A DNA stretch of 64,000 nucleotides from a virus (IMGVR_UViG_3300011337_000669); one strand, 5' to 3'; positions 3,549 to 63,596 are shown, counted from the stretch's first letter. A program made the numbers and translations. The notes: generated by a model not told the origin, from the letters alone.

Positions 3549-3557
3549 ATATAGATA

Positions 3558-4430: not shown

Positions 4431-4441
4431 AACAAAAAAAA

Positions 4442-5952: not shown

Positions 5953-5965
5953 AAAATAAATTAAT

Positions 5966-6562: not shown

Positions 6563-7167
6563 AGTTAAATTTAGATTATACTAACGACCCGAGATGGGGA
6601 AAAATGTCGGACATACATAAAAAATCATTACCGATACCAAGTGTGTTCGTGAGTATTCTTTATCAGTACCAAGATAAAATACCTAACTTGAATGAAGTAA
6701 ATTTTGCGATTGAGACAGGGACGTACGATGCGAGTACTTCTGTAATTTTGGCGGAACATTTTGATGTTGTATTCACAGTGGAATTATTTCCTGACCGTAA
6801 CCCATATGATGGAAAAAGTTATAGAGAAATTTATAAAGAACTTTCAGAAAAATATGGTAACCTTACTTTCTTAGAAGGTAATTCAAGTGATGTATTAAAA
6901 TCAGTTTTAGAAGAATTACCTGATGAAAGATTCTTAATCCTATTGGATGCTCACAGTATGTTAGATGGTCCATTAAAAGAAGAATTAGGGGCTATTAAGG
7001 AGGCAAGTAACCGTACTGATCATGTAATGTTAATTGACGACTGTAGAGACTTAGGTCAAGGAAATTTCCCAACACTACAAGAGTTTAAAGACTCATTATA
7101 TAACATTAACCCTAATTATACAATCATAAACACAATGGAAGGTAACCACGTTTATTTAGTTTATTAA
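6559..7167 (+). CDS. SAM-dependent methyltransferase-like protein
   Basis: AIETGT motif I, LEGNS, ILLDAH, LIDD. Confidence 0.55.
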   Translation: MKLNLDYTNDPRWGKMSDIHKKSLPIPSVFVSILYQYQDKIPNLNEVNFAIETGTYDASTSVILAEHFDVVFTVELFPDRNPYDGKSYREIYKELSEKYGNLTFLEGNSSDVLKSVLEELPDERFLILLDAHSMLDGPLKEELGAIKEASNRTDHVMLIDDCRDLGQGNFPTLQEFKDSLYNINPNYTIINTMEGNHVYLVY

Positions 7168-7168
7168 T

Positions 7169-9198: not shown

Positions 9199-9204
9199 TT
9201 AACA

Positions 9205-9939
9205 ATGGGTAGATTAACAAAACCAAAACCAACTGCAACTTTACCAAGTGAAGAAGCTCCGATTAAAAATAAAAAACAACAAATTTGTTCAATAATTAAA
9301 CGAAAAACCAAAGAAAAATTTTTAACTGAAAGTCAAAAGGAATACTATGAAAAATTAGTAAACAATCAGATTAGTATTTGTTCAGGTCCGGCCGGTGTTG
9401 GAAAAAGTTATATCGCTATGAAATGTGCGGTCGATTTATTATCTGACCCTAATACACCTTATGAAAAAATTATAATTGTAAGACCTGCAGTTGAGGCTGA
9501 AGAAAAATTAGGTAGTTTACCTGGTGGTGTTGAAGAAAAACTTGACCCATATATTTTTCCATCATATTATCTATTGAATAAAATAATTGGTAAAGATAAT
9601 AGAGAAAAATTAAAGGAAATTGAGTCAATAGAGGTATTTGCATTGGCATACATGAGGGGTATGAATATTGACAACTCAATTTTGATTTTTGAGGAAGCTC
9701 AAAATTCGACACCAAGTCAAATGAAATTGCTATTAACTAGAATAGGATTTAACTCAAAATTTTTTATATCAGGAGATTTGGAACAATTTGATAGACACAA
9801 AGACAAAACACAAACTGGTCTTTGGGATGCTCTTAAGAAATTTCAAAATATGAATGATATTGGTGTTTTTGAATTCAAGTCTACAGATATTGTTAGAAAT
9901 CCATTAATATCTAAAATATTAGAAAAATACGAAGAATGA
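9205..9939 (+). CDS. phoH: PhoH-family ATPase
   Basis: GPAGVGKS Walker A, IVRPAVE, LAYMRG, EEAQN, LLTRIG, GDLEQ.D, DIVRNP. Confidence 0.95.
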   Translation: MGRLTKPKPTATLPSEEAPIKNKKQQICSIIKRKTKEKFLTESQKEYYEKLVNNQISICSGPAGVGKSYIAMKCAVDLLSDPNTPYEKIIIVRPAVEAEEKLGSLPGGVEEKLDPYIFPSYYLLNKIIGKDNREKLKEIESIEVFALAYMRGMNIDNSILIFEEAQNSTPSQMKLLLTRIGFNSKFFISGDLEQFDRHKDKTQTGLWDALKKFQNMNDIGVFEFKSTDIVRNPLISKILEKYEE

Positions 9940-10535
9940 GAATTGGGATTGAGTTGAATGGAGTTTTAAGGGACACTCTTAAAAAAATACAACAAGAGTA
10001 TGAAAAATGGTATCTAAATAATCCATTCAAAGAAGAAAGTGACGAAGATGATTTCAAATATGAGGTTTTATCTGACCTAACTACATTAAACATTTCAAAT
10101 CATTTGAAATTTAGGTGTGAAGATGAATTGTATGATTTTCTATATAAAGAACACACTATGGAAATTTTCGGGCATGCGGGTTCCGTGGAACCTTCAGGTC
10201 TTGTAGAATTAAATGAATTTTACTTAGACCTGAGAGAATCTCATGACATTATTATTGTTTCGGATGAAATAGGTAAATCAAAACCTGCATCATTATTTTT
10301 CATTTCTAAGTTTGGTTGTTTAGTTGAAACTGTAAAATTTTATAGTGAAAGTACAATTAATTCATTGTGGGATTCTGTAGACATTTTACTTACCGCTAAT
10401 CCTAAACTATTATTGGATTATCCAAAAAACAAAATGGTAATTAAATTCAATACAATATATAACGAAGACATTGAATCCGATTTGAATATTTCAAGTCTTA
10501 AGGAGTTAAAAACAAAAATACAAGAAATAGCATGA
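9936..10535 (+). CDS. HAD-like (5'-deoxyribonucleotidase-like) protein with degenerate catalytic motif
   Basis: MRIGIELNGVLRD aligns to IxIDxDGVLxD with both Asp replaced. Confidence 0.45.
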   Translation: MRIGIELNGVLRDTLKKIQQEYEKWYLNNPFKEESDEDDFKYEVLSDLTTLNISNHLKFRCEDELYDFLYKEHTMEIFGHAGSVEPSGLVELNEFYLDLRESHDIIIVSDEIGKSKPASLFFISKFGCLVETVKFYSESTINSLWDSVDILLTANPKLLLDYPKNKMVIKFNTIYNEDIESDLNISSLKELKTKIQEIA

Positions 10536-10816
10536 TACAAGTATTAGGAGAAAATTATTTTATCGACTTAGATGAAATTGAAAGTTATCTTGATATGAGC
10601 CAGAGTGAAGATTCCTCTGATTCAGAATCAGGAGTAACAGAAACAAAAATTAACATTATTAAATTTGAAATGGTTAAGTTGTTGTTAGACACGGTCCTTA
10701 CCGAGCAAGAAGTCGTAGATGAAAAGCTTGGTATGAAGTCAAACTCTAATGTAAGTATACCATTCAAAATCGCGTTTAATAGTTTATTAAATAAAAAACT
10801 TATCAATCATTATTAA
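10532..10816 (+). CDS. Hypothetical protein
   Basis: Operonic ORF with overlapping start/stop. Confidence 0.7.
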   Translation: MIQVLGENYFIDLDEIESYLDMSQSEDSSDSESGVTETKINIIKFEMVKLLLDTVLTEQEVVDEKLGMKSNSNVSIPFKIAFNSLLNKKLINHY

Positions 10817-10817
10817 T

Positions 10818-11870
10818 ATGGAAAACCAACTTCAAGAAAAAGTAAAACAATCCATTACGATACTAAGAGAAAAACAAGCCAGAATATATTTTTTAGTTCA
10901 AGATACTAAAGGTAATGCAAAGGCATCTGTAAGACTCATATATCAAATGGCAAAAACATTAAAAGACAATGGATTTAATCCAATTATCCTTCACGAAAAA
11001 TCTGATTATGCGGGTGTTGTGGCATGGTTAGATGAAGAATACATGTCCTTACCTCACAGAGCAATCGAAGGTCAAAATTTAGAAATTTCACCTGAAGATT
11101 TTTTAGTCATCCCAGAAGTATTCGGATTTGTTATGGACCAAGTAAAACAACTTCCTTGTGCCAAAATTGTATTAACTCAACAATACGCTCACATGTTGGA
11201 AACTTTACAACCAGGTCAAACATGGAATCAATTCGGATTCCTAAAATGTATTACTACTTCGAGTAAACAAAAAGAATATATTGAAAGGGTTATGAGACAA
11301 GTCTCATTTGATATTATTGACCCTTTGATTGGTGAGGAATTTACACCTAAGTCGATACCAGCAATGCCAATCATCGGTGTTCACACAAAAGAACAAAGTG
11401 ATGCTATTAATTTAATCAAAACTTTCTATTTGAAGTTTCCACAATACAGGTGGTTTACTTTTCGAGATTTGAGAGGTTTGTCAGAAAAAGAATTTGCAAA
11501 TTCTTTAAGAGACTGTTTTTTAAGTGTTTGGATTGATGACCACAGTGGATTTGGAACGTTTCCTTTGGAATCTATGAAATCTAATGTACCAGTCATTGGA
11601 AAAGTTCCAAACCTGTCTCCTGATTGGATGAGCGAAGACAATGGTATTTGGGTGACGGACCAAACTTTATTACCTGATTTAGTTGCCGATTATGCACAAA
11701 ATTGGTTGGAAGATAATATTGACCCACAAATCTATGAAAAAATGAAAGAAACCGTTGAAAGGTATATCGATAAACAAAAGTTTGAATCATCCATTGTTTC
11801 ATTATTTGATGGTTATTTAACCACCCGAGCTGATTCATTCGAAAACCAAATCACCAAAACAGAAGAATAA
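10818..11870 (+). CDS. GT-B-like glycosyltransferase-related protein
   Basis: DFLVIPEVFG and GFGTFPLESMKSNVPVIG resemble the GT-B donor-binding (E.FG...EAM..G.PV) region. Confidence 0.55.
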   Translation: MENQLQEKVKQSITILREKQARIYFLVQDTKGNAKASVRLIYQMAKTLKDNGFNPIILHEKSDYAGVVAWLDEEYMSLPHRAIEGQNLEISPEDFLVIPEVFGFVMDQVKQLPCAKIVLTQQYAHMLETLQPGQTWNQFGFLKCITTSSKQKEYIERVMRQVSFDIIDPLIGEEFTPKSIPAMPIIGVHTKEQSDAINLIKTFYLKFPQYRWFTFRDLRGLSEKEFANSLRDCFLSVWIDDHSGFGTFPLESMKSNVPVIGKVPNLSPDWMSEDNGIWVTDQTLLPDLVADYAQNWLEDNIDPQIYEKMKETVERYIDKQKFESSIVSLFDGYLTTRADSFENQITKTEE

Positions 11871-11871
11871 T

Positions 11872-12678
11872 ATGAATAATACATTATCACTATCAGTAAT
11901 ACTTCCCATAAAATCTTCCAAAGCGAAAGATTTCGATGAATATTTTGAAAAGGCGATTTCATCTCTAAAAAATCAAACAGTTGGTTTCGAGGAATTAGTT
12001 ATCGTACATACACAAGAAGAATCTTTAATTGACCACCTAAATTCTTATGATTTTGGGGATTTGAATGTTACAAAATTATTGTGGGATAAAGACCCAAGTT
12101 ATGCAAATCAAGTAAATTACGGAATTAAAAACGCAAAGGGAACTTGGGTTTCTCTTTTTGAGTTTGATGACGAATATTCTTCAATTTGGTTCAAAAATGT
12201 ACAAAAGTATGTTGAATCATTTCCTGATGTTCAAATGTTTTTACCTGTGGTTGTTGAAACGGATGAGAAGGGATTATTTGCGGGATTTACAAACGAGGCA
12301 ACTTTCGCGGCAAACTTTTCACAAGAAATGGGGATTTTAACTAATGATACCCTACAAGAATACCAAAATTTCCAAACTGCGGGGTCTGTATTCAAAAAAT
12401 CAATTATCGAAGATTTTGGAGGTTTCAAACCGTCAATTAAATTGACATTTATTTATGAACTTTTATTAAGACTGACATACAACTCTGTTTCAATAATGAC
12501 AATACCAAGACTTGGTTATAAGCACGTTAACCTCAGAGAAGGTTCTGTTTTTTGGAACTATAAATTTGGTGTAGATAAAATGATTGAAGACGAAGTTAAG
12601 TTTTGGATACAGACAGCAAAAAGAGAATATTTTTTCACGGACGATAGATCCATAAAATATCAATCAGATAATGCTTAA
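11872..12678 (+). CDS. GT2-like protein
   Basis: LSVILPI start, NYGIKNAKGTWVSLFEFDDEY. Confidence 0.6.
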   Translation: MNNTLSLSVILPIKSSKAKDFDEYFEKAISSLKNQTVGFEELVIVHTQEESLIDHLNSYDFGDLNVTKLLWDKDPSYANQVNYGIKNAKGTWVSLFEFDDEYSSIWFKNVQKYVESFPDVQMFLPVVVETDEKGLFAGFTNEATFAANFSQEMGILTNDTLQEYQNFQTAGSVFKKSIIEDFGGFKPSIKLTFIYELLLRLTYNSVSIMTIPRLGYKHVNLREGSVFWNYKFGVDKMIEDEVKFWIQTAKREYFFTDDRSIKYQSDNA

Positions 12679-38924: not shown

Positions 38925-39102
38925 AATTTTAGTTTTTTATTTTAAGTTTATTTGTTATCTTTGTTCCAAGATTTATGCCGATAGTGATTATATGACATTA
39001 TGACAGAAAAAGATTTAATAACATTAAATATTTCCTGACAATTTGTCCAATCATTGGGATAAGAATAAAAATTGTTATTACTTTGTAAAAACTAAAAACG
39101 TT

Positions 39103-41118
39103 ATGAACGACTTAATGGACGACGAAGACAAAATGATGAGTAAAAGACAGAAGTCAGGCGGGGACAGCTCGACTCCTGTACTGGACAATTTCAGTAGAGA
39201 TTTGAATAAGCTCGCCGAAGAAGGAAAATTAGACCCCGTAATTGGAAGGGATAGAGAAATCCTGAGAATTGCACAGATTCTTTCCCGAAGAAAAAAGAAT
39301 AACCCAATCATTATTGGAGAACCTGGTTGTGGTAAGACCGCTATTGCTGAAGGTCTAGCAATGAAAATCGTAAGTGGTGAATGCCCTCGTAATTTGTTGG
39401 ATAAACGACTCGTTAATTTGGATTTGACTTCAGTTGTTGCTGGTACAAAATACCGTGGTCAATTCGAGGAAAGAATGAAAGTAATCCTTGAAGAACTTAG
39501 TGCAAACCCTAACATTATTGTATTCATTGATGAGATCCATACTCTAGTTGGTTCAGGTAATTCATCAGGAGCTATGGATGGTTCCAACATCTTCAAACCA
39601 GCATTATCTCGTGGTGAGATTCAAGTAATCGGTGCGACAACTTTGGATGAGTTCAGAAAACACATTGAAAAAGATGGAGCGTTAGAGCGTAGATTTCAAA
39701 AAGTAATTGTTGAACCATCTACTGTGATTGAAACAATTGAAATTTTGAACAACGTTCGAGATAAATACGAAACATACCACAAGGTAATTTACTCCAATGA
39801 AGTTATCGAAACTTGTGTGAAGTTGGCTGACAGATATATTACCGACCGTGAGTTTCCAGACAAAGCATTCGACATTATGGATGAAGTTGGTGCTAGAATG
39901 CAGACCGAACTTAAGGTTCCTGAGGTAATCGAAGAGTTGAAGCGTAAAGCCGCTGACCTGAAACAACAGAAAATGGATGTTGTGAAGAAACAAAACTATG
40001 AACAAGCCGCCCAACTGAGAGACAAAGAGAAAAAGTTGTTGGACAAATTGGAACAAGAAAAACAGAAGTTTGAGGAACAAATGTCCAAAGACAAACAAAA
40101 GATTAGTTTGGAAGATGTTTATGATGTAGTGTCAAACATGACTAAAATTCCTGTCAATAAAATGTCTGTGGATGATACCAAAGCGTTGTTGAATTTGGAT
40201 AAACACATCGTTGGAACTGTCATTGGTCAGGATGCTGCGGTTATCAAGGTTGCAAAATCAATCAAGAGAAACCGACTTGGCATCAAAGACCCAAATCGTC
40301 CGATTGGTTCATTCGTTTTCTTGGGTTCAACAGGTGTCGGTAAAACTCACCTCGCAAAACAACTTGCAAAAGAAATGTTTGGTAGCGAGGACGCTCTAAT
40401 CCGTGTGGATATGTCCGAATATCAAGAGAAGCATACCGTATCCAAATTGGTTGGAGCGCCTCCAGGTTATGTTGGATACGAAGAGGGTGGATTGTTAACC
40501 GAGAAAGTTAAGAACAAACCTTACTCTGTTATCTTGTTTGATGAGGTTGAGAAAGCTCACAAAGATGTATTCACCGTATTACTTCAAATCTTGGACGATG
40601 GTCACGTTACGGATAGTTTGGGTAGAAAGATTAACTTCAAGAATACCCTGATTATCTTAACATCAAATCTTGGAGTTAAAAAATTACAGGACTTCGGAAC
40701 TGGTATTGGATTCTCAAATAATACCTATAGTAACGAAGAAGCGAAGAAAGAAATCTTGATGAAAGAAATGAAGAATTTCTTTTCACCTGAATTCATCAAC
40801 CGTATCGATGACACCATCGTTTTCAATTCTCTATCTCAAGAGGATATCAAGAAAATCACAGACATCGAACTTAAGAAGTTGATGAAGCGTCTTGACGAAA
40901 TGAAGTATAAGATTACTTACGATGAATCACTTTTGAATTACCTATCAAAAATCGGATATGATGAGGTATACGGTGCAAGACCACTCAAGAGAGCGATTCA
41001 GGACAAAGTTGAAGACTTATTATCTGAAGAAGTTCTGACCGACAAAATTATCGTAGGAAAAACCTACGTGATTAAAGTCGAAGATGAAGTAGTCAAAGTA
41101 GTCAAGAAAGGTCGGTAA
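39103..41118 (+). CDS. clpC: ClpC-like AAA+ unfoldase lacking the N-terminal Clp domain
   Basis: GEPGCGKT/FIDEIH, UVR middle domain (QNYEQAAQLRD), GSTGVGKT/LFDEVEKAH, IGF ClpP-docking loop, GARPL. Confidence 0.9.
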   Translation: MNDLMDDEDKMMSKRQKSGGDSSTPVLDNFSRDLNKLAEEGKLDPVIGRDREILRIAQILSRRKKNNPIIIGEPGCGKTAIAEGLAMKIVSGECPRNLLDKRLVNLDLTSVVAGTKYRGQFEERMKVILEELSANPNIIVFIDEIHTLVGSGNSSGAMDGSNIFKPALSRGEIQVIGATTLDEFRKHIEKDGALERRFQKVIVEPSTVIETIEILNNVRDKYETYHKVIYSNEVIETCVKLADRYITDREFPDKAFDIMDEVGARMQTELKVPEVIEELKRKAADLKQQKMDVVKKQNYEQAAQLRDKEKKLLDKLEQEKQKFEEQMSKDKQKISLEDVYDVVSNMTKIPVNKMSVDDTKALLNLDKHIVGTVIGQDAAVIKVAKSIKRNRLGIKDPNRPIGSFVFLGSTGVGKTHLAKQLAKEMFGSEDALIRVDMSEYQEKHTVSKLVGAPPGYVGYEEGGLLTEKVKNKPYSVILFDEVEKAHKDVFTVLLQILDDGHVTDSLGRKINFKNTLIILTSNLGVKKLQDFGTGIGFSNNTYSNEEAKKEILMKEMKNFFSPEFINRIDDTIVFNSLSQEDIKKITDIELKKLMKRLDEMKYKITYDESLLNYLSKIGYDEVYGARPLKRAIQDKVEDLLSEEVLTDKIIVGKTYVIKVEDEVVKVVKKGR

Positions 41119-54210: not shown

Positions 54211-54789
54211 TTAAAAATATGTTTGTTCAAAATAAAGAACTTGAAATTTGTCCGATTTGTCAACTAAATTCGATCCATTAATTAAATCATTAAATTCTAC
54301 AACTGATTCCCTTTGAATATTTCTGAATTGTTCAAGAAAGTCGAAAGTAATCAAATCTTCTGCAAATACATCCTGTGAATTTTTGGTGTATTGTTTCATC
54401 AAATACAACTCAAACTCATATGCTTGATGAACGATATCGATCAGGTTGTCAAATTCAAATTTCTCTTTGTTTCCTTCCACAAAAGGGATGATGTTGAAAT
54501 CTGTCATGTACTTTTGAAGGATTTCCGCATGTTCCAACTCTGTTTTGGAGTCAGCATCAAAAAATGCTGCAGCTTTTTTATAATTTTGGTCATGGCACCA
54601 GTTTGCAGCTGCTCTGTATAATCCATGAGCGTGATATTCGTCTTTGATTCTGTCATTAAGCATTTTAACAACCTTATCACTTAACTTATAAAGTTTCGGT
54701 TCATTATTTTTCGATGGAACGTTTTTTGCTTGTTCTGAAAGCTGCACCATTCTATATAATTGTTCTTTAGTTAGAGTTACTTTTTCCAT
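54211..54789 (-). CDS. Ferritin-like protein
   Basis: LNDRIKDEY.AH.LY...A.WC, E.EHA, YEFE, Q..E ferroxidase-type spacing. Confidence 0.75.
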   Translation of the reverse strand: MEKVTLTKEQLYRMVQLSEQAKNVPSKNNEPKLYKLSDKVVKMLNDRIKDEYHAHGLYRAAANWCHDQNYKKAAAFFDADSKTELEHAEILQKYMTDFNIIPFVEGNKEKFEFDNLIDIVHQAYEFELYLMKQYTKNSQDVFAEDLITFDFLEQFRNIQRESVVEFNDLINGSNLVDKSDKFQVLYFEQTYF

Positions 54790-55486: not shown

Positions 55487-55903
55487 TTACTTCTTTAACA
55501 ACCAAGACGAAGATTGGATTTTATCTCCGAGTCCATCAATCAACTTAATCCCCCACCAATCACATACCTGTCTCTCAGGGATCGAATTATTGTTTTGGTC
55601 TCCACCATTGGCGAAAATAAGTTCGTTTGCTGGATCCTCTCCAGAATGAATCATACCGAGTGTCTGACACACAGTTCTATCTGTATCAATAGATAGAATT
55701 GCTTTGTCAACCATTTTCAGGTTTTCGATAATGAACATTCTTTCATCTTCGTCTTGGAACTCTTTACTACCTTTTAATTCTCTCTGTTTGTCGTTGTTGA
55801 CAATCACATAGAGTTTATCACCATGTTCTTTGGCTTTATTGAAATATTCAATATGACCTTTATGAACAGGATTAAAATAACCGCTTACAATTACAATTTT
55901 CAT
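55487..55903 (-). CDS. Cytidylyltransferase-like (HxGH) protein
   Basis: SGYFNPVHKGH, FANGGD, SSSWLL. Confidence 0.85.
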   Translation of the reverse strand: MKIVIVSGYFNPVHKGHIEYFNKAKEHGDKLYVIVNNDKQRELKGSKEFQDEDERMFIIENLKMVDKAILSIDTDRTVCQTLGMIHSGEDPANELIFANGGDQNNNSIPERQVCDWWGIKLIDGLGDKIQSSSWLLKK

Positions 55904-56386: not shown

Positions 56387-56425
56387 AATTTTCTTTGTTT
56401 ATTGGTTGATGAGGTACTAATATAG

Positions 56426-56510
56426 AGGTGAGAGTGAGATTCGAACTCACGAGAAACTTTCGTTTATCAGTTTTGCAGACTGTTACCTTCAACCACTCGG
56501 CCATCTCACC
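56426..56510 (-). tRNA. tRNA-Cys(GCA) with long variable arm
   Basis: GGUGAGA/UCUCACC-U73, ACAGU-CUGCAAA-ACUGA anticodon arm, AAAC-GAAA-GUUU extra hairpin. Confidence 0.85.
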
Positions 56511-56542: not shown

Positions 56543-56610
56543 GTGCCAGGACGGGTTTCTAACCCGCTCTTCAGTTAATCACTGCGTGCTGCCATTTACA
56601 CCACCTGACT
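56543..56610 (-). ncRNA. Degenerate tRNA-like element E0
   Basis: 5' AGUCAGGUGGUGUAAAUGG; altered T arm GCGGG-UUAGAAA-CCCGU; imperfect acceptor. Confidence 0.45.
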
Positions 56611-56676
56611 AATTTTTAGATTTCTAAAACTCATCCCTGACGGGGTAAAGAAACTCCATCTTATTTGTTTTTTGCG

Positions 56677-56793
56677 TAGTCAGGACAGGATTCGAACCTG
56701 TAATAGAAAGAGTACGCTATCTCGCTGCGTGACCAGTTACCTATCTATGTCAGTAACGCTAAACTCTGTGTCTACCAATTCCACCACCTGACT
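56677..56793 (-). ncRNA. tRNA-Leu-like scaffold element E1 (117 nt)
   Basis: AGUCAGG-UGGUGGAAUUGGUAGAC ... ACAGG-UUCGAAU-CCUGU-CCUGACU-A; unique structured centre. Confidence 0.7.
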
Positions 56794-56797
56794 ATTA

Positions 56798-56917
56798 TTA
56801 TTTCAGTAATTTTGACCAAATCTTAATTACCATGTCTCTTTGTGGAGATGGTTGTAATTTAGACCACCTATCAATCCACATTTGAATTTCATCTTTACTA
56901 ATAACTTTTTTACTCAT
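56798..56917 (-). CDS. 39 aa peptide between E2 and E1 (not in ORF track)
   Basis: MSKKVISKDEIQMWIDRWSKLQPSPQRDMVIKIWSKLLK; stop 4 nt before E1. Confidence 0.55.
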   Translation of the reverse strand: MSKKVISKDEIQMWIDRWSKLQPSPQRDMVIKIWSKLLK

Positions 56918-56933
56918 AACTTTTGATTTTAAG

Positions 56934-57039
56934 TAGTCAGGACAGGACTCGAACCCGTATTAATTTACATATTGAATGGGTGTCAACTTAATGTCTTCCA
57001 ATCAATCATCAATCTACCATTAGCTTTCGCCACCTGACT
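56934..57039 (-). ncRNA. tRNA-like scaffold element E2 (106 nt)
   Basis: Same acceptor and T arm, different centre. Confidence 0.65.
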
Positions 57040-57105
57040 AATTTTTAGATTTCTAAAACTCATCCCTAACGGGGTAAAGAAACTCCATCTTATTTGTTTT
57101 TTGCG

Positions 57106-57215
57106 TAGTCAGGACAGGACTCGAACCTGTATTATCACGATGCGTAGAATTAAGGGAGCTTATTCCTTAATTGTGATATTACCTACATAGCGTACACCAA
57201 TTTCGCCACCTGACT
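57106..57215 (-). ncRNA. tRNA-like scaffold element E3 (110 nt)
   Basis: Same ends; centre with AAUUAAGG/CCUUAAUU hairpin. Confidence 0.7.
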
Positions 57216-57327
57216 TAAAAAACACTTTAGTCGCGGGGAACCCATCTTCCGCTTCTTACTAGATTCTTGTAGCTTACTTACTTAAGTTCATACCGTTACT
57301 ACTAGGGAACCCAACATTGTGTTTTTG

Positions 57328-57386
57328 TGGAGTGGAGGGAGTCGAACCCTCTGCCTGTACCTGTACGGCTTTAAACAAACCACTCC
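57328..57386 (-). ncRNA. Minimal tRNA-like structure (59 nt)
   Basis: GGAGUG/CACUCC-A stem, T arm GAGGG-UUCGACU-CCCUC, one internal hairpin, no D arm. Confidence 0.5.
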
Positions 57387-57835
57387 TAAGCCTGCAGAGC
57401 TGTTACAACTATCGCATTAATCTCATATGCTATTTCCATAGGTTAGAAAATGTGAGTCTCAAACCAACATTATATAGTTGCCTATTCTTTTTCAAACTTA
57501 GTTTTAGTTGCTTTCCATGCGCAAGGCTCATAACTAATTTCCAGTATCGCCACGTGGAGGCGTTTGAATGATACCGCTGGGCTTCGTTATTCTCCTTTCG
57601 GATATTGTTTCATACCTTACTCCGGCCTTATCTCGAGTTGACCGTTTGTGGCTTCTTATACAATTTATTTTAATTCAGCATCCCCTACTGCCCGTTTGGA
57701 TGCGTTTATGAATTTATTAGTCTATTCCTAATAGGCAACTCTGGAATCACCAGAATATCTGTCCGGTCTGTTCACATTATCGTAACCGCCTGTTACGTTA
57801 AGAACCGAAGCATGTGGCCGGCAATCATTACATTG

Positions 57836-57975
57836 TAGTCAGGACAGGATTCGAACCTGTAAGAGAGTTACTATCCTTCACTCTCCCGTTTAGTTATTAT
57901 CAGACTTTTAATGAGGTCGTATCTCGTGTTGAACTGTTTTACCTAAATAGCGTCTCTCCATTGCGCGACCTGACT
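57836..57975 (-). ncRNA. tRNA-like scaffold element E4 (140 nt)
   Basis: Same acceptor and T arm, unique centre. Confidence 0.65.
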
Positions 57976-57980
57976 GTATT

Positions 57981-58118
57981 TTAGATATAAATTTGAATTA
58001 TTAAGAAAGGAATTTCCAATGAAATATATCTACGATTTGGTATACTAGAAGTCCCCCATGCTATCATCAATCCTATTTGATTGGAAGTCATTAGTCTTCC
58101 CCATTTATATTCTTTCAT
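57981..58118 (-). CDS. 45 aa peptide, copy A (not in ORF track)
   Basis: MKEYKWGRLMTSNQIGLMIAWGTSSIPNRRYISLEIPFLIIQIYI; duplicate at 58888-59025 differs only at synonymous sites. Confidence 0.7.
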   Translation of the reverse strand: MKEYKWGRLMTSNQIGLMIAWGTSSIPNRRYISLEIPFLIIQIYI

Positions 58119-58134
58119 ATATTTTTTATTTAAG

Positions 58135-58212
58135 TAGTCAGGACAGGATTCGAACCTGTGATAGACGCTCCTTAGAGTCCGCTATCTTGGCAGCCAATTC
58201 CGCCACCTGACT
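58135..58212 (-). ncRNA. tRNA-like scaffold element E5 (78 nt)
   Basis: Same ends; centre is one GAUAG/CUAUC-closed hairpin without a canonical anticodon arm. Confidence 0.65.
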
Positions 58213-58241
58213 TTATTCTATTTATTAAGTTATCGTTTTGC

Positions 58242-58469
58242 TTATTTATGAGTTATGCGATAATTGCCTTTAAACTTTGAGTATAAGATTTCGTTGTAAT
58301 GTCTATTACATTCGTACTGATATACAAATTCACCATTGTTTTTACACCACATAACGAAATCTATTGCTTCTTTTTGTAGCAACATATCACTAACATTAGA
58401 TAACCACAATTGCTTGTTGTATTCATCTATTGTGGTTTGTGCTTTTTTATAATCCTCTTCTGTTATCAT
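58242..58469 (-). CDS. Hypothetical protein between E6 and E5
   Basis: 75 aa ORF. Confidence 0.55.
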   Translation of the reverse strand: MITEEDYKKAQTTIDEYNKQLWLSNVSDMLLQKEAIDFVMWCKNNGEFVYQYECNRHYNEILYSKFKGNYRITHK

Positions 58470-58513
58470 AATTTTTTTATTAAATTATCAATTGTGTTTA
58501 TCTGTAACTGTTG

Positions 58514-58643
58514 TAGTCAGGACAGGATTCGAACCTGTAAAATAGTTTAACAAACTATTGGTGTGCACTACCTTTAAGGTTTCTAAGTCTTACAAGTTAT
58601 TATGCTTTACTTCCCGAGCGTCTACCAATTCCGCCACCTGACT
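58514..58643 (-). ncRNA. tRNA-like scaffold element E6 (130 nt)
   Basis: Full AGUCAGGUGGCGGAAUUGGUAGACGC 5' end; centre with AAUAGUUU/AAACUAUU hairpin. Confidence 0.72.
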
Positions 58644-58749
58644 ATTGTTTTAAAAGATTAACCATTCAGGAGCTTCACCTGCTTTTGATAGGACTGATAC
58701 CTCCAAGTTAATGGTCAATATCGAGCTTTTTACTTTAGTTAATCTTTTG

Positions 58750-58882
58750 TAGTCAGGACAGGATTCGAACCTGTTACAATAGATTCAATTGGTTTCCCAT
58801 CTTTTGCAGGTTATTACACTATCTCAGATTTTCGCCCTACTCATAGTTTATTATACCGCTATTGTACTTCCGCCACCTGACT
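58750..58882 (-). ncRNA. tRNA-like scaffold element E7 (133 nt)
   Basis: Same acceptor and T arm, unique centre. Confidence 0.65.
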
Positions 58883-58887
58883 ATTTT

Positions 58888-59025
58888 TTAGATATAAATT
58901 TGAATTATTAAGAAAGGGATTTCCAATGAAATATATCTACGATTTGGTATACTAGAAGTCCCCCATGCTATCATCAATCCTATTTGATTGGAAGTCATTA
59001 ATCTTCCCCATTTATACTCTTTCAT
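58888..59025 (-). CDS. 45 aa peptide, copy B
   Basis: Identical protein to 57981-58118. Confidence 0.7.
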   Translation of the reverse strand: MKEYKWGRLMTSNQIGLMIAWGTSSIPNRRYISLEIPFLIIQIYI

Positions 59026-59036
59026 ATATTTTTTAT

Positions 59037-59246
59037 TTATTTCTCCAAAACGTACTTCATCATCTCTTGCATCTTGATAATCATAAGTTCCATTTCGTCC
59101 TTACTAAGATACAACCTACCGTTTAATGTTTTATCATCCAACTCCCTGACTTCAACTATGATACCATCAAACATCTCAGTTGGATAAATTTCAACATTCT
59201 GTTCTTCAGTTGCAATAACTGTTTTGTTCCAAACTTTATTTTTCAT
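59037..59246 (-). CDS. Hypothetical protein
   Basis: 69 aa ORF. Confidence 0.55.
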   Translation of the reverse strand: MKNKVWNKTVIATEEQNVEIYPTEMFDGIIVEVRELDDKTLNGRLYLSKDEMELMIIKMQEMMKYVLEK

Positions 59247-59249
59247 AAC

Positions 59250-59834
59250 TTATTTCTTTTTGAATTGTTCAAACCATTGTTCTAATGTCATCTTCTTTCC
59301 TGCTAACAAATCTTCTGTATGCTTATAAAGTATATTTAATACTTCTTCCTCACTATACATTCTTTCTTCTTTAGGTTTTTCTTTTGGAAGAAACATATAT
59401 GTTTCTTTTGGAATGATTATTTTGTAACCAAACTTTTCAAACCCGTATGAATTAACAGAAATTTCAGAGCCATATTCATTTAATGCAACCAATTCCACTT
59501 CAACTTCCTCACAACTTGAGTTCTTAACAAACCATTGTAAAAACTCATCATCAATAGCTTGAACACCATATTTGATTAAGTCTCGGTCTGTTGTTAGGAC
59601 TACTGGGTTAGAAGCACTTTCTAAATCTTTAGACATCAAATATGACACTTGAACTAATCTACCATATTTAGTGATAACATAATCACTATCGTTAATATCT
59701 TCATCAGAAGTGATGTAGATATTTACTTCATCATCACAAACTGAATTTTTATACTCACTTGTAATCGTCAAATTATCTTCAATTAAATGCAGCCTACTTG
59801 GTTTATCTGTTGGTAATATGTGAATGTTTTTCAT
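59250..59834 (-). CDS. Hypothetical phage protein
   Basis: MKNIHILPTDKPSRL...IYITSDE...IDDEFLQWFVKN...MYSEEEV pattern seen in Bacteroidetes phages. Confidence 0.65.
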   Translation of the reverse strand: MKNIHILPTDKPSRLHLIEDNLTITSEYKNSVCDDEVNIYITSDEDINDSDYVITKYGRLVQVSYLMSKDLESASNPVVLTTDRDLIKYGVQAIDDEFLQWFVKNSSCEEVEVELVALNEYGSEISVNSYGFEKFGYKIIIPKETYMFLPKEKPKEERMYSEEEVLNILYKHTEDLLAGKKMTLEQWFEQFKKK

Positions 59835-59927
59835 GGCTTTTACAGTTTAAGTTCCTTTCTTATTACTCCACTAATGTCCGAAAAAGATTTTAGAATTCCA
59901 AGAGGTTTATCAATTATTTATCTTTTG

Positions 59928-59952
59928 AAGCCAGGACAGGACTCGAACCTGT
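59928..59952 (-). repeat. 3' half (T arm plus acceptor strand) of a scaffold element, E8
   Basis: ACAGG-UUCGAGU-CCUGU-CCUGGCU directly after the stop of 59958..60149; no matching 5' half seen. Confidence 0.6.
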
Positions 59953-59957
59953 AATTA

Positions 59958-60149
59958 TTACTTACGGAAAATATCCCATTTATTTAATAAAGTTTGAGGA
60001 GTCCAATTATATTTCCTATTTTCAACTAACATCTTTGCGACATTTTCATATAATTCGTGGTATAATTGTTTATAATCAATATCACTAACATCAGCCATAT
60101 CCAATTTGGGTGTCTCTGCTTTATTAAAATCCTTTTCTTCTTTTTTCAT
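59958..60149 (-). CDS. Hypothetical protein
   Basis: 63 aa ORF between E9 and half-element E8. Confidence 0.55.
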   Translation of the reverse strand: MKKEEKDFNKAETPKLDMADVSDIDYKQLYHELYENVAKMLVENRKYNWTPQTLLNKWDIFRK

Positions 60150-60168
60150 TTAATCTTAATTTTAATTG

Positions 60169-60308
60169 TAGTCAGGACAGGAATCGAACCTGTAAATTAT
60201 TAAGTGTTTCATTCTATAAATCTCTCTCACCATTACGTTTAGAGTAAGTTTTTAATTCATTATAGAGAACTACACAGGTTTTAACGTTTGCCATTCCGCC
60301 ACCTGACT
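60169..60308 (-). ncRNA. tRNA-like scaffold element E9 (140 nt)
   Basis: Same ends, unique centre. Confidence 0.65.
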
Positions 60309-60428
60309 AAATGTTTTTAGTTACTTTATCAACACTTCTCCAAGAACCACCTCGGCCAATTTATATCAATTTCACTTAGGTTACGTCATGATTCTACTGG
60401 TTAGGCGTCCTCAATCTAAACCTGTTTG

Positions 60429-60506
60429 TAGTCAGGGCCGGACTCGAACCGGATAAACAACCATTTCTGGATTCGGGAACCAATCCCTCATTACGTCCAC
60501 CTGACT
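60429..60506 (-). ncRNA. tRNA-like scaffold element E10 (78 nt)
   Basis: Same acceptor; T arm UCCGG-UUCGAGU-CCGGC; close relative of E12. Confidence 0.65.
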
Positions 60507-60717
60507 ATTTTAATATTTCATTTTTTCTACCACTAACAGTTTCAACTAACCAAGCAGTCTCAATTAACTCTAAATAAGATATTGGTTTTCCTCTATCAGT
60601 ATCACAAATAACTTTTTGTCTTTGTTCACAGTAATATCCTTCGGAAGTTAATCGAAATTCCTCACCATCAGACATTCTAACCAAATCACCTTTTCTCCAA
60701 GCACTTAACACATTCAT
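60505..60717 (-). CDS. Hypothetical protein whose TAG stop overlaps E10
   Basis: 70 aa ORF; stop shares 2 nt with the acceptor stem. Confidence 0.55.
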   Translation of the reverse strand: MNVLSAWRKGDLVRMSDGEEFRLTSEGYYCEQRQKVICDTDRGKPISYLELIETAWLVETVSGRKNEILK

Positions 60718-60738
60718 ATTTTTTATTTAAGTTGTTTG

Positions 60739-60829
60739 TAGCCAGGACAGGACTCGAACCTGTAACTTTTGTCTTTTGGTTCCGAAAATCGGATTACTCA
60801 CCAACACGCTACCCTTGCGTCACCTGACT
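60739..60829 (-). ncRNA. tRNA-like scaffold element E11 (91 nt)
   Basis: AGUCAGG/CCUGGCU acceptor (one G:U), same T arm. Confidence 0.65.
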
Positions 60830-60830
60830 A

Positions 60831-60965
60831 TTATAATTTCCACCACCTACCACATATTTGACATTCTTGTGGTCCGTAAGCTTTATGCATTTTATGTTTA
60901 TCTAAAACAAAGTCATGTACAAATAAACACCGTACGTTTCCAAATTGTCTAATAATCCATTTCAT
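60831..60965 (-). CDS. 44 aa putative zinc-binding peptide (not in ORF track)
   Basis: MKWIIRQFGNVRCLFVHDFVLDKHKMHKAYGPQECQICGRWWKL; C/H...CxxC; stop 1 nt before E11. Confidence 0.6.
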   Translation of the reverse strand: MKWIIRQFGNVRCLFVHDFVLDKHKMHKAYGPQECQICGRWWKL

Positions 60966-60979
60966 ATATTTTTCATTTG

Positions 60980-61057
60980 TAGTCAGGGCCGGACTCGAAC
61001 CGGATAAACAACCTTTTCAGGACTCAGGAACCAATCCCTCATTACGTCCACCTGACT
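60980..61057 (-). ncRNA. tRNA-like scaffold element E12 (78 nt)
   Basis: Near-copy of E10 with four central substitutions. Confidence 0.65.
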
Positions 61058-61099: not shown

Positions 61100-61861
61100 T
61101 TATTTTTTTCTCGTTTTAGAATTCCTATTATTACCAACTCCAGCACATGTTCTCGAACAATATACATTTTCTTCTTGACATGATTTTCCACATACTCTAC
61201 ACTCGTTCGTTAACTTTTTATGCGGGTTTTCTTCATACAAACGTATAAAATCTTTTCCATATTTACCTTCAACATACTCAAACTCTTTTTTCAAATTTTC
61301 CTTGTATATTACTTGCAGGTTTGAGACGGATTTTAATTTTGTTCGTATGTGTTCATCCGTATACCCTTTAATTTCAATCAACTCACCATTTATAATAAAA
61401 TCCGGAACATACTTTCTTTTTTTGCCTTCCCAAACATATTCAAATTCCTGAGTGTTTCTAACAAAAGAGTTCCCATGTTCAATGTTGAAGATGACCCAAG
61501 CCAGTTCATAACTACTATCACACCAATAACCTTTATACCACCCACCCTTACCGACACCAGAACCTTTACGATATCCACCCGAACATTTCGTCCAACATTC
61601 TGCATGATATTTTTTCGGTTTCCATTTTGTGTGGATTATTTCATTACCACAAAATAAACAAATGGATTTAACTAAACTTTCTTCACCTGATGTTTTTCCC
61701 TTGTTCCAAGGGATCTGACCCAAATTCGAATTTCTTTTCTTTTCATTAGTTTTCTCACTGAAAACTCTACTATTCCTACACTGTATGGTACAATAGTTAA
61801 TCAACCCTTTAGTGGGGGTAAACTCAACACCACATTTCTTACAATTAGACATACAATCCAT
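61100..61861 (-). CDS. Zinc-finger plus PD-(D/E)xK endonuclease-like protein (homing type)
   Basis: CxxC repeats; SSYELAW...YVPDFII...IEIKGY. Confidence 0.7.
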   Translation of the reverse strand: MDCMSNCKKCGVEFTPTKGLINYCTIQCRNSRVFSEKTNEKKRNSNLGQIPWNKGKTSGEESLVKSICLFCGNEIIHTKWKPKKYHAECWTKCSGGYRKGSGVGKGGWYKGYWCDSSYELAWVIFNIEHGNSFVRNTQEFEYVWEGKKRKYVPDFIINGELIEIKGYTDEHIRTKLKSVSNLQVIYKENLKKEFEYVEGKYGKDFIRLYEENPHKKLTNECRVCGKSCQEENVYCSRTCAGVGNNRNSKTRKK

Positions 61862-61913
61862 TTAATTATAAATATCAAGTCGAACCCGAAAAGTAATCGT
61901 GATTACTAAAAAG

Positions 61914-61985
61914 TATTGCTATGGGGATTCGAACCCCAGACTCCTCATAGAAAGTGAGACGTGATAACCCCTTCACTATAGCAAC
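61914..61985 (-). tRNA. tRNA-Glu(TTC)
   Basis: GUUGCUA/UAGCAAU-A acceptor, UCUCA-CUUUCUA-UGAGG anticodon arm; own TATCTTTG promoter at 61996-62003. Confidence 0.88.
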
Positions 61986-62036
61986 ATTTCAAGGACAAAG
62001 ATACTACAATATTTCAAAGAACAAAAATAAGTCATA

Positions 62037-62945: not shown

Positions 62946-63596
62946 TTAGATACTTTCAACCCGATTTTTCATTATCTCACAGTATTTCTCATCCACCTCG
63001 TAACTGATAGAATCAAACCCCAACTCTTTTGCAACTTTACTGGTGGTACCACTACCACCGAAAACGTCGATGATTGTTTGGTTCGGTTCCGCAGTTGTTA
63101 AGATAATTCTTCTGATAACTTCCTCAGGGATTTGACAAGGGTGTTCGGTCTTTTCCTTACTCACATTCTTTACCTGATTGATTTCCCACCAATCATAAAG
63201 TTTTGCTCCCGTCTTTCCTTCGGCAATTCGTTGTTGAATCCTTTTATCTTTGAGATTTTTGTATGGTTGTCTAACCTTTCTAAAATCAGGTTTGCATCCC
63301 CACCATGAAATTAAACGACTTTGTTTCCCTGTGTTTGAATTATACACCCAACAAACAACCTGTTCACACTTGGCGTTTATTGCCTTTGGTAACAAGTTGA
63401 TTGTTTCTTCAGGGTAATGAATGATTACACAAGGGGTGGGTATTTTGGATAATAGTTCAATATAATCCTCTTCACTTAACTTGTCTTTGTATTCGTTGTA
63501 CGAATATTCTTGATTATAAGGTGGGTCTGTAATTGTTAATCCTTTCGGTATGACGCAGTTTCTGAAGTCGTCATTGATAATTGTTGTTTCCACCAT
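62946..63596 (-). CDS. DNA N6-adenine/N4-cytosine methyltransferase (beta class)
   Basis: TDPPY catalytic motif, HPCQIP, DVFGGSGTT SAM motif. Confidence 0.9.
   Translation of the reverse strand: MVETTIINDDFRNCVIPKGLTITDPPYNQEYSYNEYKDKLSEEDYIELLSKIPTPCVIIHYPEETINLLPKAINAKCEQVVCWVYNSNTGKQSRLISWWGCKPDFRKVRQPYKNLKDKRIQQRIAEGKTGAKLYDWWEINQVKNVSKEKTEHPCQIPEEVIRRIILTTAEPNQTIIDVFGGSGTTSKVAKELGFDSISYEVDEKYCEIMKNRVESI

What the first reader, a model, noticed from the sequence alone, without database searches (positions are those of the whole stretch)
56611..61057. Cassette-like alternation of tRNA-like elements and small ORFs
Seen: the intervals between elements hold single small ORFs or short non-coding blocks. 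ORF stops sit at or within a few nt of the next element (60831 adjacent to E11, TAG overlapping E10, 56798, 57981, 58888, and 59958 next to the half element). Whole intervals are duplicated at non-adjacent positions: about 65 bp at 56611-56676 and 57040-57105, and about 150 bp at 57980-58133 and 58887-59039. Inference: the conserved ends act as recombination points that shuffle cassettes (integron-like in effect, no integrase seen), and/or as tRNA-style punctuation that cuts a long transcript into single-gene mRNAs.
Basis: partly seen in the sequence, partly recalled or inferred. Interest (0 to 1): 0.62.

Follow-up and report, generated by a model that had tools for sequence, protein, structure and literature searches.

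The report
Phage gene cassettes joined by tRNA-like ends
In the tRNA region of a very large freshwater phage, small genes and short RNA blocks sit between a dozen tRNA-shaped elements with identical ends, and close relatives show these pieces gained, lost, duplicated and reordered at those ends, so the region works as a gene-shuffling array.

Summary
On the minus strand, 56543-61057 holds 12 tRNA-Leu-like elements plus one 3' half. All share the ends AGTCAGG...CCTGACT-A and have unrelated cores. They alternate with eight small ORFs and several non-coding blocks. Six ORF stops lie 0-6 nt from the next element, and both reported duplications are real (95-96% identity).

Six close relatives keep both flanks at 83-98% identity but carry between 1 and about 10 elements, with shared pieces in a different order. 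One relative has a chimeric element whose crossover lies inside the conserved 5' arm. The 70-aa gene sits between element arms with the same joints in three other phage lineages, but beside unrelated cores.

No integrase was found, so this is not an integron. The closest analogue is the PeSL cassette system of T4-type phages.

tRNA-style punctuation is untested, because no RNA data could be obtained. It is plausible: the elements share the 5' leader (U-1, A-2, A-4) and the 3' trailer (C-A-A-A) of the real phage tRNAs.

A PD-(D/E)xK nuclease gene heads the array, and its family sits beside tRNA genes in 48 of 54 loci.

The scan reported the same device earlier on another genome (e1-5648886). 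I found no published description.

The parts
61913..61985 (-). tRNA-Glu(UUC), first gene of the co-oriented unit. A TATCTTTG box (Bacteroidota -7 type) lies at 61996-62003.
61100..61861 (-). 253-aa PD-(D/E)xK-type nuclease with CxxC motifs at both ends. It looks like a free-standing homing endonuclease, 51 nt downstream of tRNA-Glu.
60980..61057 (-). tRNA-like element A (78 nt, CCGG T-stem variant).
60831..60965 (-). 44-aa ORF. Its stop is 1 nt before element B. A 95% identical copy in L122/L123 sits in another context.
60739..60829 (-). tRNA-like element B (91 nt). It is also the only array element with a core in L124/L125.
60505..60717 (-). 70-aa ORF of a conserved family. Its TAG stop overlaps element C.
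60429..60506 (-). tRNA-like element C (78 nt), a 92% identical copy of A.
60309..60428 (-). 120-nt non-coding block between C and D. In L121 it follows tRNA-Glu instead.
60169..60308 (-). tRNA-like element D (140 nt; Rfam tRNA model 35 bits).
59958..60149 (-). 63-aa ORF. Its stop is 6 nt before the half element.
59928..59951 (-). 3' half of an element (T arm plus acceptor 3' strand only), a deletion remnant.
59250..59834 (-). 194-aa ORF with about 41% identical homologues in five other phage loci.
59037..59246 (-). 69-aa ORF. Homologues are 65-93% identical; the one in L026 is flanked by elements on both sides.
58888..59025 (-). 45-aa ORF, copy 1 of the 172-nt duplication.
58750..58882 (-). 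tRNA-like element E (133 nt).
58514..58643 (-). tRNA-like element F (130 nt).
58242..58469 (-). 75-aa ORF with five related protein clusters at 76-96% identity.
58135..58212 (-). tRNA-like element G (78 nt). The same core type occurs in L122 and L076.
57981..58118 (-). 45-aa ORF, copy 2 of the duplication.
57836..57975 (-). tRNA-like element H (140 nt). Its core is fused to a D-type 5' arm in L121.
57216..57835 (-). 620-nt ORF-poor, GC-richer non-coding block (a cassette without a gene).
57106..57215 (-). tRNA-like element I (110 nt).
57040..57105 (-). 65-nt block, copy 2.
56934..57039 (-). tRNA-like element J (106 nt). Its core is 89% identical to one in L122, at another position in the order.
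56798..56917 (-). 39-aa ORF with homologues at 70-77% identity in L114, L122 and L187-L190.
56677..56793 (-). tRNA-like element K (117 nt; Rfam tRNA model 39 bits).
56611..56676 (-). 65-nt block, copy 1. It is present in all six close relatives.
56543..56610 (-). Short element L (68 nt, degenerate 3' acceptor strand), conserved in all close relatives.
56425..56510 (-). tRNA-Cys(GCA), the first canonical tRNA after the array.

Best explanation
This is the hyperplastic tRNA island of a jumbo (at least 276 kb) freshwater phage, probably of Bacteroidota.

Structure. A phage-borne family of tRNA-Leu-derived genes keeps constant acceptor, D and T arms around unrelated cores. These elements are interleaved with small ORFan genes and non-coding blocks, all on one strand.

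DNA level. The roughly 24-28-bp arms are near-identical in every copy. They act as portable homology where general homologous recombination deletes, duplicates, reorders and exchanges the pieces between them, both within a genome and between co-infecting phages. Two kinds of module are swapped: 'arm-interval-arm' units (an ORF or RNA block) and element cores. The double-strand breaks that start such events may come from the PD-(D/E)xK nuclease gene at the head of the array. This is inferred, by analogy with SegB in T-even phages.

RNA level (inferred). The island is read as one long transcript starting at tRNA-Glu. Each element is then cut out by the tRNA-processing enzymes (RNase P at the 5' end, 3' trimming), which would release the small mRNAs with 13-25-nt leaders.
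For: Shown by comparison.
1. Six close relatives keep both flanks at 83-98% nucleotide identity, but their arrays differ:
   - L126 has only tRNA-Glu, the 65-nt block and element L.
   - L124/L125 have element B in addition.
   - L121 has the C-D block, element H, the 65-nt block and element L.
   - L122/L123 have about 10 elements, with window pieces in another order.
2. L122/L123, L124/L125 and L246/L247 are each pairs of independent assemblies with identical arrangements.
3. The L121 element is D-type for its first ~20 nt and H-type after that, so the crossover lies inside the 5' arm.
4. L248 and L249 are collinear at 92-99% identity but differ by about 360-nt and 520-nt insertions or deletions bounded by arms.
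5. The 80%-identical homologues of the 70-aa gene in L246, L248 and L249 keep the same joints (3' arm, 13-14 nt, ATG; TAG overlapping AGTCAGG) next to unrelated cores.
6. Against L122, five of nine shared modules are 94.7-95.5% identical, while the flanks are 83-85% identical. This points to more recent exchange of the modules.
7. The window's own duplications run from arm to arm or from leader to arm.
8. Remnants exist: the half element at 59951-59928, and a 10-nt element stub between two ORFs in L122.

Support for the RNA part.
- The element leader is T(-1) 84%, A(-2) 72%, A(-4) 70%. For 220 canonical phage tRNAs it is 71%, 62% and 61%.
- Elements and canonical tRNAs share the trailer C-A-A-A, and 0 of 219 canonical tRNAs encode CCA.
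- D-stem pairing is kept through different sequences.
- Inside the array there is only one minus-strand TAnnTTTG box and no minus-strand terminator.

Nuclease.
- P153-D154...E163-x-K165 is invariant in 19 homologues.
- 48 of 54 homologue loci have a tRNA within 1 kb, and 25 of 54 carry AGTCAGG elements.
- The ten closest homologues all lie 43-60 nt after a tRNA-Glu.
- SegB-driven rearrangement of phage tRNA regions through homologous recombination is published (PMC13096335).
Against:
- Some junctions lie at the ends of canonical tRNAs that share no arm homology with the elements: tRNA-Glu followed directly by the 65-nt block or by the C-D block, and a tRNA-His inserted before element L. The L122 stub junction also has no homology. 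So part of the turnover must come from illegitimate recombination filtered by selection.
- Because the arms are conserved everywhere, homology blocks will tend to end at them whatever the mechanism.
- The nuclease's target is unknown, and its fold matches are weak (Foldseek E above 0.06).
- RNase P cutting at -1/+1 would destroy the overlapping TAG stop of the 70-aa gene, which complicates a simple punctuation model.
Confidence: 0.68

Rival explanations
1. Modules are shuffled by random illegitimate recombination, and selection keeps only junctions that leave tRNA-like units and ORFs intact. The identical arms are conserved for RNA function only and play no special role as crossover sites.
For: - Junctions occur exactly at the ends of canonical tRNAs with unrelated acceptor stems: tRNA-Glu followed directly by the block, and a tRNA-His insertion.
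- The L122 stub junction has no homology.
- The left edge of the 172-nt duplication lies in an A-rich ORF leader, not in an arm.
Against: - The L121 chimera has its crossover inside the 5' arm.
- The L248/L249 insertions or deletions overlap in arms.
- The arm-ORF-arm joints of the 70-aa gene are kept across lineages.
- 24-28 bp of identity repeated 12 times in 4.5 kb is a sufficient substrate for phage recombinases. This rests on established knowledge, as argued for PeSLs in PMC2839356.
Confidence: 0.17
2. The elements are themselves mobile DNA. They would be MITE-like, with 8-bp inverted ends TAGTCAGG/CCTGACTA, or spread by the neighbouring nuclease, and they insert between otherwise static ORFs.
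For: - The termini are inverted repeats.
- Elements occur in more than 120 viral contigs.
- They co-occur with homologues of the nuclease in 25 of 54 loci.
- The same ORF is found with and without flanking elements.
Against: - Cores are nearly all different (198 unique sequences among 204 copies), unlike copies of one transposing element.
- No target-site duplication is seen; the flanks read A-T upstream and A-C downstream.
- D- and T-arm features and D-stem covariation point to selection on a tRNA-like RNA.
- The closest nuclease homologues are tied to tRNA-Glu, not to the elements.
Confidence: 0.07
3. A true integron-like system: a site-specific recombinase encoded elsewhere in the genome excises and inserts cassettes at the tRNA-like sites.
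For: - Cassettes are co-oriented and apparently promoterless, with one repeated boundary element.
- Cassette content differs between relatives.
Against: - No Phage_integrase match in 170-kb and 142-kb relative contigs, although all 14 control genomes matched.
- None among the 20 window ORFs of 250 aa or more that were scanned.
- Boundaries lack the attC core GTTRRRY; they read T|AGTCAGG and CCTGACTA|C.
- Junctions also occur at canonical tRNAs.
- The window's genome is only partly seen, so absence is not proven.
Confidence: 0.04
4. This is an ordinary phage tRNA cluster with degenerate or intron-containing tRNA genes and the usual interspersed small ORFs, and the apparent rearrangements are assembly errors across repeats.
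For: - Phage tRNA clusters often hold small ORFs (established knowledge; T4 and T5).
- Rfam's tRNA model passes its threshold for three elements.
- With introns allowed, ARAGORN calls nine elements.
Against: - ARAGORN with default settings calls none of the 12, and the intron fits are arbitrary.
- All 12 share one acceptor stem, unlike real isoacceptor sets.
- Three arrangements are each reproduced in two independent assemblies.
- The repeated arms are shorter than 30 nt, below typical assembler k-mer sizes (inference).
Confidence: 0.04

Closest known systems
PeSL (promoter-early stem-loop) cassettes of T4-type phages (Arbiol et al. 2010, PMC2839356; Comeau et al. 2014, PMC4122927)
   Same: - Hyperplastic region full of ORFans.
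- One conserved repeated motif flanks single ORFs.
- Close relatives differ by insertions, deletions and replacements bounded by the motif.
- The motif is proposed as a preferred site of homologous recombination that also carries expression signals.
   Different: - The repeat here is a tRNA-shaped gene (acceptor, D and T arms) with a variable core, not a sigma-70 promoter plus terminator.
- No promoter or terminator motif was found in it.
- The core of the repeat is itself a swappable module.
- Mini-circles were not tested.
SegB-dependent segmental amplification and homing in the T-even tRNA gene region (PMC13096335; PMC2330249)
   Same: - A free-standing nuclease gene sits inside a phage tRNA cluster.
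- SegB cuts inside tRNA genes, with a motif matching the T-loop, and the breaks are repaired by homologous recombination, which changes copy number in the tRNA region.
   Different: - The nuclease here has a PD-(D/E)xK fold, not GIY-YIG.
- Its cleavage sites are unknown.
- The duplications here are dispersed, not tandem ladders.
Integron gene cassettes (IntI, attI, attC)
   Same: - A row of co-oriented, apparently promoterless single-gene units, each ending at a repeated structured element.
- Content differs between relatives.
   Different: - No integrase was found.
- The elements are tRNA-like, not attC.
- Junctions also occur at ordinary tRNAs.
- Crossovers fit homologous recombination.
Mitochondrial tRNA punctuation and plant mitochondrial t-elements (Forner et al. 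2007, PMC1920247)
   Same: tRNA-like structures directly abut coding regions, where RNase P and RNase Z cleavage would define mRNA ends. One stop codon here overlaps the cleavage site, as incomplete stop codons do in animal mitochondria (own knowledge).
   Different: - The setting is a phage, with a repeated family that shares one acceptor stem.
- Cleavage has not been shown.
Linker or boundary-sequence model of modular phage evolution (Susskind and Botstein 1978; own knowledge)
   Same: Short conserved sequences between modules serve as crossover points for exchange between phages.
   Different: The linkers here are halves of a structured RNA gene and recur a dozen times in 4.5 kb.

Membership tests
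Integron | IntI-type tyrosine recombinase next to the array | tested here: not met
   There is no PF00589 match in 170-kb and 142-kb relative contigs, while all 14 controls were positive. None was found among 20 window ORFs of 250 aa or more. The genome is only partly seen.
Integron | attC sites with R''/R' core (GTTRRRY) at cassette ends | tested here: not met
   Boundaries read T|AGTCAGG and CCTGACTA|C, and the elements carry tRNA D and T arms.
Integron | Co-oriented promoterless cassettes read from one upstream promoter | tested here: inconclusive
   All units are on the minus strand. There is one TAnnTTTG box at the head and only one inside the array, with no minus-strand terminators. These are motif scans only.
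PeSL cassettes | Repeat consists of a strong sigma-70-type early promoter plus a stem-loop terminator | tested here: not met
   Promoter-like hits are at chance level (47 found against 37 +/- 5.6 expected), and there is no terminator on the transcribed strand within the array.
PeSL cassettes | ORFans flanked by the repeat; close relatives differ by insertions, deletions or replacements bounded by the repeat | tested here: met
PeSL cassettes | Excised mini-circles carrying one chimeric repeat | not testable with these tools
tRNA punctuation / t-elements | tRNA-like fold directly abutting the coding regions | tested here: met
   - Rfam tRNA model scores of 31-39 bits for three elements.
- 7-bp acceptor stem, 5-bp T stem, TTCGAAT loop, and a GG-containing D loop in 178 of 198 elements.
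- ORF stops 0-6 nt upstream and ORF starts 16-22 nt downstream.
tRNA punctuation / t-elements | Endonucleolytic cleavage at the element borders generates mRNA ends | not testable with these tools
   There are no RNA data. The only indirect support is the leader and trailer shared with canonical tRNAs.
Canonical tRNA genes | Cloverleaf with a 5-bp anticodon stem and 7-nt loop | tested here: not met
   ARAGORN with default settings calls none of the 12. They are called only with forced 12-58-nt 'introns' and arbitrary anticodons.
Free-standing homing endonuclease in a tRNA cluster (SegB-like role) | Nuclease gene embedded in the tRNA cluster and absent from close relatives that carry a different allele of the adjacent gene | tested here: met
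   - The 253-aa ORF lies 51 nt after tRNA-Glu.
- L121, L124 and L126 lack it and carry an unrelated tRNA-Glu sequence at the same site.
- The ten closest homologues all lie 43-60 nt after a tRNA-Glu.
Free-standing homing endonuclease in a tRNA cluster (SegB-like role) | GIY-YIG catalytic domain; demonstrated cleavage in tRNA genes | tested here: not met
   The motif is PD...ExK, and the weak fold matches are all to PD-(D/E)xK nucleases. Cleavage cannot be tested here.

The most novel reading that the evidence does not exclude
The tRNA-shaped elements are dual-use joints. As DNA, their two constant halves are standard connectors that let jumbo freshwater phages capture, duplicate and trade single small genes and RNA cores between lineages, with breaks supplied by tRNA-associated PD-(D/E)xK nucleases. 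As RNA, the same joints are cut out by RNase P and 3'-end enzymes, so every captured gene is automatically expressed from the shared transcript. Stop codons overlapping the cut site would then couple translation to processing.
Probability: 0.3. Interest if true: 0.8.

Novelty: new variant of a known kind. Interest (0 to 1): 0.63.

Why it matters
Phage ORFan regions are where anti-defence and host-takeover genes turn over fastest, yet few mechanisms for that turnover are known. PeSLs in T4-type phages are the main example.

Here the joint is a tRNA-derived gene with invariant ends. It occurs in more than 120 uncultured phage contigs and is absent from isolate bacterial genomes.

If the arms are both crossover points and RNA-processing signals, they would explain two things at once: how promoterless small genes can be moved between phages, and how they are expressed on arrival.

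The finding also offers a defined, testable system of short repeats, small cassettes and a candidate nuclease, and a natural counterpart of the tRNA-flanked multiplex expression arrays used in biotechnology.

Tried and rejected
- blastn of the region against 50,697 GenBank phage records found no match.
- No whole genome is held for the window.
- Pfam and PHROGs gave nothing for the eight small ORFs.
- A sequence search of the PDB with the nuclease gave only a spurious kinesin light-chain hit. Foldseek gave only weak matches.
- ARAGORN with introns allowed produced arbitrary anticodon assignments. I rejected these as evidence that the elements are intron-containing tRNAs.
- I considered a CRISPR-like reading (constant repeat plus variable 'spacer' core) but did not test it, because cores vary in length from about 20 to 200 nt and recur as conserved types in relatives.
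- I rejected a MITE reading: there is no target-site duplication and the cores are unrelated.
- Literature searches for the arm sequences and for descriptions of such elements found nothing.

Full report
**What the window is**

The window is phage DNA. It encodes an HK97-type major head protein, a portal and a large terminase. GC content is about 33%. The exact product of one array gene is recorded on a contig of 276,376 bp, so this is a jumbo phage.

A Bacteroidota host is likely, on three grounds:
- The only matches to the element in 185,579 species genomes are 22 MAG contigs, mostly Chitinophagia, Flavobacterium and Saprospirales. None is from an isolate.
- The phage carries a SusC-like TonB-dependent receptor gene.
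- A TAnnTTTG box sits just upstream of the first tRNA of the island.

**The observation**

All genes of the region lie on the minus strand. Between tRNA-Glu (61985-61913) and tRNA-Cys (56510-56425) I find 12 elements. Each begins AGTCAGGTGGCGGAATTGGTAGAC-like and ends ACAGGTTCGAATCCTGTCCTGACT-A. There is also one isolated 3' half.

The elements are 68-140 nt long, and their centres are unrelated to each other. ARAGORN with default settings calls none of them. Rfam's tRNA model passes its threshold for three.

Between the elements lie:
- ORFs of 44, 70, 63, 194, 69, 45, 75, 45 and 39 aa;
- non-coding blocks of 65, 107, 120 and 620 nt.

ORF starts follow the preceding element by 16-22 nt in five cases.

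Both duplications are real and run into the element arms. The 110-nt pair is 95% identical and the 172-nt pair 96%. Elements A and C form a third duplicated pair.

**The pattern is a property of a widespread family**

The 25-nt 3' motif occurs in more than 120 IMG/VR contigs, often several times and usually inside tRNA clusters. From these contigs I collected 204 full elements, 198 of them unique, 69-250 nt long.

An ORF of at least 30 aa ends within 10 nt upstream of:
- 28% of elements,
- 9% of 220 canonical tRNAs of the same loci,
- 4% of random positions.

In 13 of 199 elements a TAG stop overlaps the first two bases. In 55 of 199 the next ORF starts 13-25 nt after the 3' end. Of 154 gaps between neighbouring elements in other loci, 39 hold exactly one ORF, with a median length of 47 aa.

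**The small ORFs are real genes, at least mostly**

- The 70-aa protein has 43 related clusters at 56-100% identity.
- The 75-aa protein has five related clusters.
- The 69-, 45-, 39- and 194-aa proteins have homologues at 41-93% identity in other phage loci.
- None matches Pfam or PHROGs.

**The decisive test: cassette order in relatives**

Using the 102-aa gene just downstream of the array, I fetched six close relatives with 93-97% protein identity. Their flanks align to the window at 83-98% nucleotide identity. The arrays differ radically:

| Relative | Array content |
|---|---|
| L126 | tRNA-Glu, the 65-nt block, element L (5.3 kb absent) |
| L124/L125 | as L126, plus element B |
| L121 | the C-D block, one element, the 65-nt block, element L |
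| L122/L123 | about ten elements |

In L122/L123 three elements have the window's J, G and L cores and five have new cores. The shared pieces come in the order C-D block, J, 194/69-aa genes, G, 44-aa gene, 39-aa gene. In the window the order is 44-aa gene, C-D block, 194/69-aa genes, G, J, 39-aa gene.

Each arrangement is seen in two independent assemblies, which argues against misassembly.

**Where the exchanges happen**

- The L121 element matches window element D, and the block upstream of it, for its first ~20 nt. After that it matches element H. The crossover therefore lies inside the conserved 5' arm.
- In a second lineage, L248 and L249 are collinear at 92-99% identity. They differ by ~360-nt and ~520-nt segments whose alignments overlap in arms.
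- The 70-aa gene's 80%-identical homologues in a 400-kb phage (L246/L247) and in L248 and L249 all keep the same joints: 3' arm, 13-14 nt, ATG, and TAG overlapping AGTCAGG. The six flanking cores are unrelated to the window's and to each other.
- The heritable unit is therefore 'half element - interval - half element', exactly the shape of the window's duplications. The cores are a second set of swappable modules.
- Against L122, five of nine shared modules, including coding ones, are 94.7-95.5% identical, while the flanks are 83-85% identical. In the flanks, 0-14% of 150-nt windows reach 94.5% identity. This suggests the modules were exchanged more recently than the backbones diverged.

**Limits of the homology model**

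Some junctions fall at the ends of canonical tRNAs whose acceptor stems are unrelated to the elements:
- The other tRNA-Glu allele is followed directly by the 65-nt block in L126, or by the C-D block in L121.
- A tRNA-His is inserted between the 65-nt block and element L in L122.

In L122 the 44-aa gene is followed by a 10-nt stub of a B-type element fused to the leader of the 39-aa gene. The window's half element is a similar remnant. So illegitimate events filtered by selection also contribute.

**RNA level**

The 15 nt upstream of the elements were not part of any search pattern. They show T(-1) 84%, A(-2) 72% and A(-4) 70%. The 220 canonical tRNAs of these phages show 71%, 62% and 61%. This is the leader preference known for bacterial RNase P (own knowledge).

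Both classes are followed by C-A-A-A after the discriminator, and none of 219 canonical tRNAs encodes CCA. D stems are kept through different sequences, and 178 of 198 D loops contain GG.

Inside the array I found one minus-strand TAnnTTTG box, promoter-like hits at chance level, and no minus-strand terminator.

Together this makes co-transcription with excision of the elements plausible. This is the logic of mitochondrial punctuation and plant t-elements (PMC1920247).

One complication: RNase P cutting at -1/+1 would remove the TAG of the 70-aa gene, and that overlap is conserved in four lineages.

**The nuclease at the head of the array**

The 253-aa ORF (61861-61100) has an invariant PD...ExK motif and CxxC pairs. 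Its model has mean pLDDT 78. It gives only weak fold matches, all to PD-(D/E)xK nucleases, including the homing endonuclease I-Bth0305I and T7 endonuclease I.

- Of 54 loci with homologues, 48 have a tRNA within 1 kb, at 2.0 tRNAs per kb against 0.75 per kb in the rest of the locus.
- 25 of the 54 carry AGTCAGG elements on the same strand.
- The ten closest homologues all sit 43-60 nt after a tRNA-Glu(UUC).
- L121, L124 and L126 lack the gene and carry an unrelated tRNA-Glu sequence at that site.

This is the pattern of a free-standing homing endonuclease. SegB of T-even phages cuts inside tRNA genes, with a motif that matches the T loop, and drives recombination-dependent copy-number change there (PMC13096335; PMC2330249). 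A similar role here is a hypothesis.

**Comparison with known systems**

- No integrase was found and the boundaries are not attC-like, so this is not an integron.
- The closest analogue is the PeSL system of T4-type phages (PMC2839356). It shares ORFans flanked by a repeated motif, insertions and deletions between close relatives bounded by the motif, and proposed recombination at the motif.
- The repeat here is different: a tRNA-shaped gene with a variable core, without promoter or terminator motifs.
- Literature searches, including searches for the arm sequences, found no description.
- The scan had reported the same device on another genome (e1-5648886). I saw that note only after reaching my conclusion, and it agrees.

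**Verdict**

The shuffling inference is supported by comparison with relatives. Punctuation is plausible but untested. This is a new variant of a known kind, repeat-mediated modular shuffling in phage hyperplastic regions, with tRNA-derived joints.

Noticed in passing
window 61100-61861 (-); L170-L223: A family of PD-(D/E)xK nucleases with CxxC motifs lies next to tRNA genes in 48 of 54 phage loci, including phages of 300-485 kb. The closest ten homologues all sit 43-60 nt after tRNA-Glu(UUC). Relatives without the gene carry a different tRNA-Glu allele. This looks like a homing endonuclease family tied to tRNA genes, a functional parallel to SegB.
   Followed up: partly
window 60505-60507; L246 4211-4213, L248 4211-4213, L249 3386-3388: The TAG stop of the 70-aa gene is made of the leader's T(-1) plus the first two bases of the next element, and this is conserved in four lineages. 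RNase P cleavage there would leave an mRNA without a stop codon, reminiscent of the incomplete stop codons of animal mitochondria.
   Followed up: no
window 56611-56676 and 57040-57105; L122 9678-9749: The 65-nt block holds an 11-codon mini-ORF (MEFLYPVRDEF) and a small hairpin. L122 changes CCC/GGG to CCT/AGG, a compensatory change, while the mini-ORF stays open. It could be a small RNA or a leader peptide.
   Followed up: no
window 57216-57835 (-): A 620-nt ORF-poor, GC-richer block between two elements. It has no Rfam match apart from a weak tmRNA-3'-end-like piece at 57325-57386. It behaves as a gene-less cassette, and it is absent from L121-L126.
   Followed up: partly
window 45382-47934 (-): A phage-encoded 850-aa protein with CarboxypepD_reg, Plug and outer-membrane beta-barrel domains (a SusC-like TonB-dependent receptor), unusual cargo for a phage.
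   Followed up: no
window 856-12678 (+): A cluster of sugar-modification genes: glycosyltransferase families 11, 10 and 2, and an NAD-dependent epimerase/GDP-mannose dehydratase.
   Followed up: no
window 39043-41118 (+): A 691-aa ATP-dependent protease gene (phrog_4871, E = 7e-241).
   Followed up: no
120 IMG/VR loci (L001-L120) and the window: None of 219 canonical phage tRNAs encodes CCA. After the discriminator, 91% have C, followed by A-rich sequence. The phages therefore depend on a CCA-adding enzyme and share one 3'-trailer pattern with the elements.
   Followed up: partly
window 54211-54789, 55487-55903, 62946-63596 (-): The island's neighbours are a ferritin-like protein, a cytidylyltransferase-like protein and an adenine DNA methyltransferase.
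   Followed up: no
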